Positions 375 through 10,559 of a stretch of DNA of 13,472 bases are shown here, in pieces. The translations under genes were made by a program, and so were the position numbers. The stretch covers positions 1 through 13,472 of the forward strand of contig NW_021826104.1 in the NCBI RefSeq assembly GCF_006345805.1, given 5' to 3'. Position 1 is the stretch's first letter. Every line of letters starts with the position of its first letter. This DNA is from Octopus sinensis. Its lineage: Eukaryota. The notes under the pieces were generated by a model. It ran no database searches. It had not been told where the DNA came from and saw only the letters and a program-made list of their open reading frames with translations.

Positions 375-528
375 ATACACATACAACATACATACATACA
401 TACATATGATATATATATATATATAATATATATATATATATAATTATATATATACATATATATATATTTATACATACATATATATATTTATACATAATAT
501 ATATATATTTATACATACATATATATAT
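329..528. repeat. (TA)n/(TACA)n compound microsatellite
   Basis: Direct inspection. Confidence 0.95.
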
Positions 529-731
529 ATTCCTTTACTACCCACAAGGGGCTAAACACAAAGGGGACAAACAAGGACAGATAAACGGATTAAGTCGATT
601 ATATCGACTCCAGTGCGTAACTGGTACTCAATTTATCGACCTCGGCGGAATTTGAACCCAGAAAGTAACAGCAGACGAAATACGGCTACGCATTTCTCCC
701 GGCGTGCTAACGTTTCTGCCACCTCGCCGCC
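529..731 (-). mobile_element. SINE family C with a 27-bp internal deletion, inserted in (TA)n
   Basis: Reverse complement of the copies at 6193-6426 and 6720-6946. Deletion at 640/641 lies between TCGAC direct repeats. Confidence 0.9.
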
Positions 732-780
732 TTATATATATGTATGTATGTATCTATCTATCTATTTATGTGTGTATCAC

Positions 781-3050: not shown

Positions 3051-3094
3051 TATAAAGCATATTACCATTTTTGTTTTCTGGATTTTACCAATAC

Positions 3095-3185
3095 TATATA
3101 TATATATACATACATACACACACATATATATATGCATATATATGTAGTATTTTATGTGTCCGTATATATGTGTTTGTGCGTGTGT
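3095..3185. repeat. (TA)/(CA)/(TG) compound microsatellite
   Basis: Direct inspection. Confidence 0.85.
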
Positions 3186-4760: not shown

Positions 4761-4864
4761 ATATGTGTGTGTGTATGGGGGTGTACATACATCTATGCGT
4801 ACGCATAGATGTGTGTATATATATATATATATATACGGGTGTGTGTGATTGTGTATAGAAGAAT

Positions 4865-5098
4865 ATATTAATAAAAGGAATTTTAGTTTGACAGAAAAAA
4901 ATTGTGAAGCATGACTGTCACCACTACTACATGAACCTGAAGATTGCAGAATTTAATGCATGAAAGTACTAGTTCAATCAGAATGAACATTTAACGTTCT
5001 ATTATTTTATTTTATTTTATTTTATTATATTATATTATATCATTATAAGATTGTAAATAAAACGTGAAAATCAAACAAGGTTGGAATTCCTTTCATTA

Positions 5099-5102
<4 letters not shown>
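4865..5102 (+). mobile_element. Short element with 18-bp inverted termini containing a hammerhead
   Basis: ATATTAATAAAAGGAATT (4865-4882) versus AATTCCTTTCATTAATAT (5085-5102), one mismatch; flanked by microsatellites. Confidence 0.5.
4932..4976 (+). ncRNA. Minimal type I hammerhead ribozyme (Penelope-like type)
   Basis: Perfect stem I TGAAC/GTTCA. CTGAAGA 4937-4943. Stem II TGCA/TGCA after a U-U mismatch. GAAA 4962-4965, palindromic loop GTAC, CUA site (cut between 4971 and 4972). Confidence 0.78.
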
Positions 5103-5128
<26 letters not shown>

Positions 5129-5129
<1 letters not shown>

Positions 5130-6192: not shown

Positions 6193-6426
6193 CAAGGCGG
6201 CAAGCTGGCAGAAACGTTAGCACGCCGGGCGAAATGCTTTGCAGTATTTCGTCTGTCTTAACGTTCTGAGTCCAAATTCCGCCGAGGTCGACTTTGCCTT
6301 TCATCCTTTCGGGGTCGATAAATTAAGCACCAGTTACGCACTGGGGTCGATATAACCGACTTAATCCGTCTGTCTGTCTTTGTATATCCCCTCTATGTGT
6401 AGCCCCTTGTGGGCAGTAAAGAAATA
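6193..6426 (+). mobile_element. SINE family C, full length, 9-bp TSD
   Basis: A-box-like TGGCAGAAACG, B-box-like GAGTCCAAATTCC; TSD AGAAATGGC at 6184-6192 and 6427-6435. Confidence 0.92.
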
Positions 6427-6697: not shown

Positions 6698-7273
6698 GGT
6701 AAAAGGTAAATACCCCCTTGATGGCGGCGAGCTGGCAGAATCGTTAGCACGCCGGGCAAAATGCGTAGCCGTTTTTCGCCTGCCGTTACGTTCTGAGTTC
6801 AAATTCCGCCGTGGTCGACTTTGCCTTTCATCCTTTCGGGGTCGATAAATTAAGTACCAGTTACGCACTGGGGTTGATGTAATCGACTTAATCCGTTTGT
6901 CTGTCCTTGTTTGTGTTTAGCCCCTTGTGGGTAGTAAAGAAATAGTTAAATACCCCCTTCGGTCATGAATGACCATGGGATTGCACCTAGAAAGTTCCTT
7001 TCCGAGGCTCAAGGTTGTTTATAGAAGACCTGCAGTCGCCCAAGCATGTCAGGCCTCCCCCTCTGCATGTTATCTATGTTATCCAGAGGAAAGGCAAAGG
7101 CCGATACAGCTTGGATCTAGTGACATAGAAACTCATTTCAACAGTTGGGTGAACTGGAGTAACGTGAAATAAAGTGTCTTGCCCAAGAACACAACACAGC
7201 CTGTCCTGATATCAAACTCACTACCTCATGATTCCGAGCCCGAAGCTCTAAACACTGAGCCATGTGCTTTCAC
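6698..7273 (-). mobile_element. tRNA-derived SINE family D (CORE-like), interrupted by a family C copy
   Basis: Minus strand TGGCTCAGTGTTTAGAGC (A box)...GAGTTTGATATC (B-box-like)...CTTGGGCAAGACACTT, with a (TTTACC)-type tail. Imperfect TSD CTTG(A/C)GTATC at 6687-6696 and 7278-7287. Confidence 0.75.
6720..6946 (+). mobile_element. SINE family C nested in family D, 13-bp TSD
   Basis: TSD TAAATACCCCCTT at 6707-6719 and 6947-6959. Confidence 0.95.
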
Positions 7274-7440
7274 ATGCCTTGCGTATCAGAACCGCACTTT
7301 CGTGTGGGAGGAAAGAACGGGAGGCTATCGTTCGGGAATGAGGTGCGACTTGTGAGGAGATCTACATCAGGAGTTTCCAAGACGCGGAAATATTCCCAAG
7401 GCGTTTATTGCGATATCCTAGTGTGCTGCCAACGATCTGT

Positions 7441-8220
7441 CTTTTATCTTTCATTCGCTTTCAGTCATTAGACAGCGGCCATGCTGGAGCATCGCCTTGA
7501 AGAATTTTTAGTCGAATGAATTGAACCCCCACCCCCCACCCAGTACTTGATTTTTAATGCCTGATACTTTTTCTATCGGTCTCTTTTGATGAAGCGCTAA
7601 TTTACAGGGACAACATAGAGATAAAGACACACACATATATACACGCATATGTGTGTGTGTGTATACAAACACATACATATACGACAAGCTGCTTTCAGTT
7701 TCCATTTATCAAATCCATAGGAGTGGCTGTGTGGTAAGTAGCTTGCTAACCAACCACATGGTTCCGGGTTCAGTCCCACTGCGTGGAATCTTGGGCAAGT
7801 GTCTTCTGCTATAGCCCCGGGCCGACCAATGCCTTGCGAGTGGATTTGGTAGACGGAAACTGAAAGAAGCCTGTCGTATATATGTATATATTTATATATA
7901 TGTGCGTGTGTGTGTGTTTGTCCCCCTAGCATTGCCTGACAACCGATGCTGGTGTGTTTACGTCCCCGTCACTTAGCGGTTCGGCAAAAGAGACCGATAG
8001 AATAAGTACTGGGCTTACAAAGAATGAGTTCCGGGGTCGATTTGCTCGACTAAAGGCGGTGCTCCAGCATGGCCGCAGTCAAATGACTGAAACAAGTAAA
8101 AGAGTAAGGCTTTGGTAGTCCTGAGGCTATGGTAGAAGGAACTTGTCCAAGATACTATGCAATGAGACTGAACCCAAAACCTAGTGTTTAGGAAGCAAGC
8201 ATCTTCCCACACAGCCACGC
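7441..8220 (-). mobile_element. Old SINE family B copy split by a younger antisense copy
   Basis: Parts 7441-7717 and 8106-8220 are collinear with the reverse complement of family B. Confidence 0.85.
7720..8107 (+). mobile_element. SINE family B, full length, young
   Basis: A-box TGGCTGTGTGG, B-box-like GGTTCAGTCCC, internal (TA)(TG) tract, tail AAGTAAAAGAGTAA; near-identical to 10157-10559. Confidence 0.95.
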
Positions 8221-9856: not shown

Positions 9857-10088
9857 CTATTTCTATACTACCCACAAGGGGCTAAACACAGAGGGGACAA
9901 ACAAGGACAGACAAAGGGATTAAGTCGATTACGTCAAACCCAGTGCGTAACTGGTACTTAATTTATCCACCCCGAAAGGATGAAAGGTAAAGTCGACCTC
10001 GGCGGAATTTGAACTCACAACGTAACGACAGACGAAATACCGCTAAACATTGCGCCCGGCGTGCTAACGATTCTGCCAGCTCGCCGCC
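9857..10088 (-). mobile_element. SINE family C, full length
   Basis: Reverse complement of 6193-6426 and 6720-6946. Confidence 0.95.
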
Positions 10089-10156: not shown

Positions 10157-10321
10157 GGAGTGGCTGTGTGGTAAGTAGCTTGCTAACCAACCGCATGGTT
10201 CCGGGTTCAGTCCCACTGCGTGGCATCTTGGGCAAGTGTCTTCTGCTATAGCCCCGGGCCGACCAATGCCTTGTGGGTGGATTTGGTAGACGGAAACTGA
10301 AAGAAGCCCGTCGCAAATATG

Positions 10322-10352
<31 letters not shown>

Positions 10353-10559
10353 TTGTGTGTCTGCGTTTGTCCCCCTAGCATTGCTTGACAACCGATGCTG
10401 GTGTGTGTACGTCCCCGTAACATTAGCGGTTCGGCAAAAAGAGACCGATAGAATAAGTACTGGGCTTACAAAGAATAAGTCTCGGGGTCGATTTGCTCGA
10501 CTAAAGGCGGTGCTCCAGCATGGCCGCAGTCAAATGACAGAAACAAGTAAAAGAGTAAA
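10157..10559 (+). mobile_element. SINE family B, full length, young
   Basis: Same structure as 7720-8107. Confidence 0.95.

What the first reader, a model, noticed from the sequence alone, without database searches (positions are those of the whole stretch)
4932..4976. Near-textbook minimal type I hammerhead ribozyme
TGAAC-CTGAAGA-T-TGCA(GAATTTAA)TGCA-T-GAAA-GTAC-TA-GTTCA has all core nucleotides, a perfect 5-bp stem I and the palindrome AGTACT that would allow dimeric stem III pairing. The only deviation is a U-U at the base of stem II. Predicted cleavage is CUA between 4971 and 4972.
Basis: partly seen in the sequence, partly recalled or inferred. Interest (0 to 1): 0.8.

Follow-up and report, generated by a model that had tools for sequence, protein, structure and literature searches.

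The report
Hammerhead in truncated Penelope-like retroelement
The motif is a real hammerhead-ribozyme sequence carried in the end repeat of a young, hundreds-of-copies Penelope-like jumping gene, a kind described in 2014; it likely cuts RNA only weakly and only in pairs, and a sister subfamily spread just as widely with a core letter changed.

Summary
Observation confirmed: every element lies at 4932-4976 (0 matches in 1,200 simulated windows). It is not a lone ribozyme. It sits in the pseudo-LTR/5' leader of a Neptune-like Penelope element (RT plus C-terminal GIY-YIG, motif repeated in direct orientation 4.2-4.3 kb apart). The window holds only a 212-bp piece plus an inverted tail, between TA repeats. 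The 35-nt core has 324 exact copies. U·U at the base of stem II is family-wide, not damage, and is known from active natural hammerheads. Five other element families keep the motif with swapped stems, C3-G8/U3-A8 covariation and other palindromes: good support for a selected, dimer-type RNA fold. Cleavage is untested. Against a role in making the template: a U4-to-C subfamily has 342 copies and most intact ORFs, and copies rarely begin at the cut site. Verdict: new member of a known kind (Cervera and de la Peña 2014). The scan noted the same kind in four other genomes, none here. Side lead: a conserved ORF1/ORF2 junction (-1 frameshift or splice acceptor).

The parts
4932..4976 (+). type I hammerhead motif (whole)
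   Evidence: 30 of 41 ungapped copies in L001-L030 identical, the window's own included
4937..4943 (+). core C3-U4-G5-A6-A7-G8-A9; 4938 (U4) is C in the sister subfamily
4944..4961 (+). U10.1·U11.1 mismatch closing a 4-bp stem II (4945-4948/4957-4960) with an 8-nt loop
4962..4971 (+). G12-A13-A14-A15.1, palindrome 4965-4970 (predicted dimer helix III), A17; predicted cut 4971/4972
   Evidence: homoduplex of the 6-mer -4.8 kcal/mol
4984..4988 (+). second UGAAC that can pair with 4972-4976 and compete with stem I
4891..5102 (+). piece of the pseudo-LTR/5' leader of a Neptune-like Penelope element; it begins at the family's recurrent 5' end about 41 nt before the motif (inferred transcription start)
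   Evidence: 88-96% identical to both pLTRs of L031 and L088; 5' ends
4887..4890 (.). remnant of the fold-back junction seen in back-to-back copies
   Evidence: the same letters form the palindrome centre in L002, L003, L005-L010 and others
4817..4882 (-). inverted outer end ('tail', AC-rich stretch just before ORF1) of the same element
   Evidence: 95-98% identical to L088 3502-3567 and L031 3216-3279
5099..5129 (.). (TA)n flank; TA/TG repeats also lie at about 4805-4836. Typical insertion context of this family

Best explanation
The 45-nt motif is the hammerhead of a Neptune-like Penelope retroelement, left here in a short, partly inverted insertion; in the full element it likely works as a weak self-cutting RNA that needs two copies to pair. 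Shown: full elements have the motif, about 190 nt of leader, ORF1, an RT and GIY-YIG ORF2, a 0.5-kb 3' region and the motif again in the same orientation 4.2-4.3 kb on; the window has no element protein and only one motif. Inferred: a transcript starting about 41 nt before the motif and running through the downstream repeat holds two motifs; their AGUACU palindromes would pair to give a 6-bp helix III and allow cleavage after CUA, slowly because of U·U and perhaps only with the element's protein. Inferred: reverse transcription starts at the AC-rich tail near the ORF1 start and mostly copies uncut RNA to its 5' end, sometimes folding back. That would give the window's layout, followed by loss of most of the left arm. 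The window copy itself is most likely an inert relic.
For: Element anatomy; RVT_1 (27.9-28.7 bits, just under the 29.6 cut-off) and GIY-YIG (above cut-off); DKG motif and C-x4-C-xx-C linker; 1,050 homologues at E<=1e-30, the named ones largely from bivalves. Copies: 324 + 342 + 74 exact matches of three core variants. Selection on the RNA fold: a descriptor that demanded neither a palindrome nor a 3-8 pair gave 13 hits in 41,406 nt of sense 3' region (12 of 19 loci), 12 of 13 palindromic and 13 of 13 with a Watson-Crick 3-8 pair, against 0 in 43,212 nt of ORF2 on either strand and 2 antisense. The 13 fall into six element families plus one unrelated motif, with four different 4-nt palindromes and unrelated stems. 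A further repeat family has U·U in 35 of 35 copies, another stem II, and a 6-nt palindrome in 33 of 35. Papers: PLE hammerheads cut weakly and only as multimers (PMC4209133); U·U hammerheads occur naturally and cut (PMC3088659; axolotl HHR_Amex2, 22% in 1 h as a monomer and much more as a dimer, PMC7229834); the anole Poseidon hammerhead needs the protein and uncut RNA is the main template (PMC11167929); inverted 5'-truncated copies, tails and (TA)n targets are typical of PLEs (PMC8557442).
Against: No cleavage or expression data. No Rfam match. Stem I is weakly populated in longer contexts. 7 of 19 loci of related families gave no sense hit. U4-to-C is fixed in a subfamily of 342 copies that includes 24 of the 30 best endonuclease hits (5 have U4, 1 has no motif), so an intact core is not needed for spread. 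Clade assignment rests on motifs, not on a tree with named references.
Confidence: 0.8

Rival explanations
1. The motif descends from a PLE hammerhead but no longer cuts in this lineage. It is kept as a structural, protein-binding or translation-control element of the leader, or merely carried along.
For: U·U throughout, plus U4-to-C in the subfamily that holds most intact ORFs. Only about 6 independent junctions at the cut site against 3 at a control site and at least 740 intact copies. PMC4209133 itself allows functions other than self-cleavage.
Against: The whole catalytic core is intact in the window's subfamily and in an older one. The C3-G8/U3-A8 covariation across families matches a pair of the active fold. 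U4C lowers but does not abolish activity in a viroid (PMC3088659, discussion passage).
Confidence: 0.14
2. The short back-to-back copies are a separate non-autonomous family (retrozyme or palindromic mini-element) that moves as its own RNA.
For: Back-to-back pairs recur with the same spacing (77 nt in 7 of 11, 76 nt in 2), and a few copies are 325-bp direct tandems (L100).
Against: The shared centre coincides with the 5' end of plain, non-inverted copies and of the older subfamily. One full element has its own inverted pair with a 54-nt gap (L031). Inverted motifs lie on opposite strands and cannot form the dimer. No tandem arrays were seen in the loci held.
Confidence: 0.05
3. Chance resemblance to a hammerhead inside a repeat.
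For: Folding z-score -0.37 and no Rfam match.
Against: 0 of 1,200 simulated windows; covarying homologues at the same place in five other families.
Confidence: 0.01

Closest known systems
Hammerheads in the pLTRs of metazoan Penelope-like elements, variant with a small palindromic helix III (Cervera and de la Peña 2014, PMC4209133; Drosophila, rotifers, shrimp, mosquitoes)
   Same: Type I topology, intact core, short stem I, palindromic insert, one copy in each pLTR, most copies solitary and truncated, some pairs on opposite strands.
   Different: The published consensus has a bulged H after A9 and G10.1-C11.1; here U·U closes a 4-bp stem II. No octopus entry turned up in the one supplement file that could be searched.
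Axolotl HHR_Amex2 (non-LTR retrozyme; PMC7229834)
   Same: Animal type I hammerhead, U·U at the base of helix II, more efficient as a dimer.
   Different: Lies in 350-bp tandem repeats that give circular RNAs. Here the motif belongs to an autonomous RT-endonuclease element and no arrays were seen.
Anole Poseidon element PAc (Frangieh et al. 2024, PMC11167929)
   Same: Hammerhead near the ORF start, AC-rich tail, AT-rich targets, uncut RNA as the main template.
   Different: Poseidon clade with a single ORF starting inside the hammerhead. Here there is a Neptune-type Zn linker, the motif lies about 190 nt before ORF1, and ORF1 and ORF2 are out of frame.
Rfam Hammerhead_1 (RF00163)
   Same: Same core and topology; the model finds 7 other motifs in this genome.
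   Different: No match to this motif at E up to 10.

Membership tests
Hammerhead ribozyme, type I | Core C3 U4 G5 A6 N7 G8 A9, G12 A13 A14, A15.1-U16.1, H17 | tested here: met
   core as listed in PMC3088659
Hammerhead ribozyme, type I | Stems I and II flank the core, stem I open-ended | tested here: met
   5-bp and 4-bp stems; stems exchange across families
Hammerhead ribozyme, type I | Watson-Crick pair at 10.1-11.1 (usually G-C) | tested here: not met
   U·U family-wide; 18 variant copies, none Watson-Crick, 4 wobble (U4-type copies only). A documented natural, active exception
Hammerhead ribozyme, type I | Helix III, as a monomer or through a palindrome in a dimer | tested here: inconclusive
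   The monomer would need a 2-nt loop; palindromic inserts in 12 of 13 unbiased hits; pairing itself not observed
Hammerhead ribozyme, type I | Self-cleavage after H17 | not testable with these tools
   needs a bench assay; only contigs were available
Hammerhead ribozyme, type I | Loop I-loop II tertiary contact | not tested
   no loop I was defined
Rfam RF00163 Hammerhead_1 | Score above the gathering threshold | tested here: not met
Endonuclease-bearing Penelope-like element | RT followed by C-terminal GIY-YIG endonuclease | tested here: met
   (in full copies L031 and L088; none in the window)
Endonuclease-bearing Penelope-like element | Partial tandem forming pLTRs with the hammerhead in each; inverted 5'-truncated copies; tail | tested here: met
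Endonuclease-bearing Penelope-like element | Single ORF | tested here: not met
   ORF1 and ORF2 overlap out of frame in four families; the legend of Fig. 1 in PMC8557442 allows a frameshifted ORF1 in some PLE types, figure not seen
Neptune clade | CX2-5CxxC linker before the endonuclease, DKG motif, (TA)n targets | tested here: met
   features from PMC8557442 (Nematis shares the linker)
Neptune clade | Placement with named Neptune references in an RT tree | not tested
   no named references at hand; the tree holds only this genome's families
Non-LTR retrozyme | Tandem arrays of short non-coding units, each with a hammerhead | tested here: not met
   single motif in the window; only occasional two-unit tandems among the loci

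The most novel reading that the evidence does not exclude
This lineage is a natural knock-down experiment on the open question of what Penelope hammerheads are for. The window's subfamily has an intact core, while a closely related, equally numerous subfamily that holds most intact ORFs fixed U4-to-C on top of U·U and kept transposing. The ribozyme would then be a dimer-gated brake on the element's own RNA, not a step in making the template, and weakening it would be tolerated or even favoured. The same lineage may also be a two-ORF Neptune subgroup that makes its RT-endonuclease by a conserved -1 frameshift or an alternative splice.
Probability: 0.3. Interest if true: 0.55.

Novelty: new member of a known kind. 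Interest (0 to 1): 0.3.

Why it matters
The catch is correct but the kind is known: Penelope-like elements carry such hammerheads across animals. What this family adds is a matched set of natural variants in one genome (U4 and C4 cores, U·U, C·A or G-C at the base of stem II, several different palindromes). That makes two open points directly testable: whether these motifs really cut as dimers through the palindrome, and whether cutting helps or hinders transposition.

Tried and rejected
Rfam scans of the window and of 4880-5000 gave only microsatellite-driven miRNA matches and no hammerhead. No tRNA genes, and no element protein in the window. Expression: no RNA holder listed on record. Four runs laid on L088 were contigs only, three guessed RNA and one of unknown kind; they cover the element and some bridge the predicted cut, but contigs cannot show ends or strand, so nothing is concluded. 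Footprint of in vivo cleavage: 8 genome hits lack the letters just before the cut site (7 junctions, about 6 independent, 1 deletion), against 7 hits at a control site 12 nt upstream (3 junctions, 4 mutated). The excess is small, and three or four of the junctions can be explained by fold-back at the local 5-bp hairpin, so this is inconclusive. Within-family conservation as a test of selection was set aside: copies are young and my patterns fixed the motif, so it is circular. Relative age of C4 and U4 subfamilies: 2.2% against 2.8% pairwise difference over 200 nt, with 30 of 66 C4 pairs dropped as misaligned, too weak to call. No pseudoknot found after the U-run in 6 of 6 junctions, and a strong splice donor in only 1 of 5 families. 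'U·U is damage of this copy' rejected. Earlier scan notes by sequence and for this genome: none. One paper (PMC5850863) was not held, so which PLE types have a frameshifted ORF1 stays open; supplement file 1 of PMC4209133, the supplements of PMC8557442 and the bioRxiv supplements were not seen and may list this family.

Full report
1. Observation. The quoted 45 nt are at 4932-4976. Stem I is 4932-4936/4972-4976, the core CUGAAGA 4937-4943, U·U 4944/4961, stem II 4945-4948/4957-4960, GAAA 4962-4965, the palindrome 4965-4970, A17 4971, and the predicted cut 4971/4972. A descriptor that did not ask for a palindrome found only this site in the window and none in 1,200 simulated windows. Energy alone shows nothing (z -0.37), Rfam has no match, and a downstream UGAAC (4984-4988) competes for stem I.

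2. It is part of a repeat. The genome is a 2.72-Gb animal assembly; the named protein relatives are largely from bivalve molluscs, and my sense that the other repeats look cephalopod-like is recalled, not tested. A search with 4860-5000 returned 60 matches from 40 of 1,335 candidates. Of 41 ungapped motif copies in those 30 loci, 30 are identical to the window. Exact counts of the 35-nt core are 324 for the window's form, 342 for a form with C at core position 4 and 74 for an older form with another loop II; the reversed controls gave 0.

3. The repeat is a Penelope-like element. L031 shows the motif at 3063-3107, ORF1 from about 3300, an RT (PF00078, 28.7 bits, just under cut-off), a GIY-YIG domain (PF01541, above cut-off) and the motif again at 7240-7284, with an inverted copy head to head. 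Six of the eleven loci picked for long ORFs (L087, L088, L091, L093, L096, L097), and L094 with a broken ORF, show the same two-motif unit of about 4.3 kb. The DKG motif, the C-x4-C-xx-C linker and TA-repeat flanks fit the Neptune (or Nematis) type as described in PMC8557442; no tree with named references was made. The window holds 4891-5102 of the repeat on the plus strand, an inverted 66-nt tail at 4817-4882 and no coding sequence. The four letters at 4887-4890 are those of the fold-back centre of back-to-back copies, so this looks like such a pair that lost most of its left arm.

4. The U·U pair. Only 10 U4-type copies have another letter at 10.1 and 9 at 11.1 (18 distinct copies); none is Watson-Crick and 4 are wobble pairs. 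The nearest other family has C·A there, another has U·U or U-A, and the rest mostly G-C. A further repeat family has U·U in 35 of 35 copies with a different stem II. U10.1·U11.1 is a known natural variant and the best-tolerated mismatch (PMC3088659), and the axolotl HHR_Amex2 with U·U cuts 22% in an hour as a monomer and much more as a dimer (PMC7229834).

5. Evidence of selection on the fold. A distant homologue (P0006) pulled out other families of the element, at 46-54% ORF2 identity to ours. With no palindrome and no 3-8 pair demanded, 19 loci gave 13 hits in the sense 3' region (12 loci; 7 gave none), 2 antisense and 0 in ORF2. Of the 13, 12 have a palindromic insert (GUAC, GCGC, CCGG, CAUG, CG; the exception has a one-letter loss) and all 13 pair positions 3 and 8, C-G in our family and U-A in the five others. 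The hits are not independent: they fall into six families plus one unrelated motif. Both antisense hits were non-palindromic as found; one proved to be a variant copy of a family that is palindromic in 33 of 35 copies.

6. Mechanism. Shown: anatomy, copy numbers, covariation. Inferred: copies repeatedly start about 41 nt before the motif (16 of 38 first-search copies at exactly -41, a set biased towards this end; 3 of 47 by alignment in the unbiased motif-only set, plus about ten of the older subfamily whose flanks show the same start), which suggests a transcription start. A full transcript would hold two motifs that pair through the 6-nt palindrome (-4.8 kcal/mol) and cut slowly, as reported for other PLE motifs (PMC4209133), perhaps only with the element's protein (PMC11167929). 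Insertions mostly copy uncut RNA: junctions at the cut site number about 6 against 3 at a control site and at least 740 intact copies, in line with the anole work. The window's single motif has no partner in cis and is probably inert.

7. Against a needed role. The C4 form occurs in 24 of the 30 best endonuclease hits (5 U4, 1 without motif), although the query came from a U4 copy. The eleven long-ORF loci all differ from the window motif at 2-3 places, as the C4 form does, and one U4 copy also has a 770-aa frame. U4C is reported to lower activity considerably in vitro while allowing viroid infectivity (PMC3088659). Whether C4 is the younger subfamily is not settled.

8. Comparison and novelty. 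This is the PLE hammerhead with a small palindromic helix III of Cervera and de la Peña 2014, differing in U·U for G10.1-C11.1. A search for octopus, hammerhead, ribozyme and Penelope together gave 3 papers (2 listed); the passages I saw do not describe this family. Repbase and Dfam could not be searched. The scan's own notes hold four similar cases in other genomes and none in this one; they agree with, but did not shape, this reading.

9. What I saw of each paper. PMC4209133: parts 1-2 of 4, plus supplement file 2 (keyword search and part 2 of 3); file 1 not searchable. PMC11167929: parts 1-2 of 4. bioRxiv 10.64898/2026.07.22.740005: parts 1-2 of 5. PMC3088659: passages and section 8. PMC7229834: passages and section 15. 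PMC8557442, PMC6962438, PMC2837043, PMC11300833, PMC5408684, PMC6431247: passages. PMC5850863: not held. No figures were seen.

10. Verdict. Real motif, right reading, known kind. Interest 0.3, lifted a little by the natural U4/C4 contrast and by the conserved ORF1/ORF2 junction, which may be a -1 frameshift site or a splice acceptor.

Noticed in passing
L093 (-), L151, L145, L152, L154, L139, L140, L148; about 40 codons before the KGLxF motif of ORF2: Full elements have a 410-470 aa ORF1 (27-44% identical between families, no Pfam match) overlapping ORF2 in the -1 frame in four families, with a run of six or more U in slippery-site phase. In 5 of 5 families the first AG after the run falls in phase 2 of ORF2, so a splice acceptor fits as well. 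In the window's family the first Met of ORF2 lies after the conserved N-terminal motif. No pseudoknot found. Four paper searches found no description for Neptune elements, but a figure legend in PMC8557442 mentions a frameshifted ORF1 in some PLE types.
   Followed up: partly
L087-L097, L042, L046-L068; window equivalent 4938: Sister subfamily with C at core position 4 (342 exact copies); it holds most intact RT-endonuclease frames, though one U4 copy (L118) also has a 770-aa frame.
   Followed up: yes
L031 7774-7820 (-); L157-L186: Another dispersed repeat family with a hammerhead motif, U·U at the base of a different stem II in 35 of 35 copies and a 6-nt palindrome in 33 of 35; its link to a PLE ORF was not shown.
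   Followed up: partly
L102-L108: Seven Rfam Hammerhead_1 matches in the genome; five share one motif type with G10.1-C11.1, and two of these lie 431 bp apart in tandem (retrozyme-like).
   Followed up: no
L135 about 4781 (-), L145 about 6208 (+): Classic minimal hammerheads (bulged A, G10.1-C11.1, CG insert) of yet other repeat families.
   Followed up: no
window 4891; L100, L101, L023, L024, L191, L192, L206: Copies of two subfamilies repeatedly begin at ACAG, about 41 nt before the motif; likely the element's transcription start and the centre of the back-to-back pairs.
   Followed up: partly
window 528-733, 6194-6426, 6723-6914, 9858-10088; 2238-2513, 7723-8220, 10160-10557: Several SINE-like interspersed repeats in both orientations, 70-92% alike, amid dense microsatellites; no ORF in the window looks like a gene.
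   Followed up: no
L036 2995-5081 (-): Two long ORFs that look like a hAT-type transposase (recalled resemblance, not tested).
   Followed up: no
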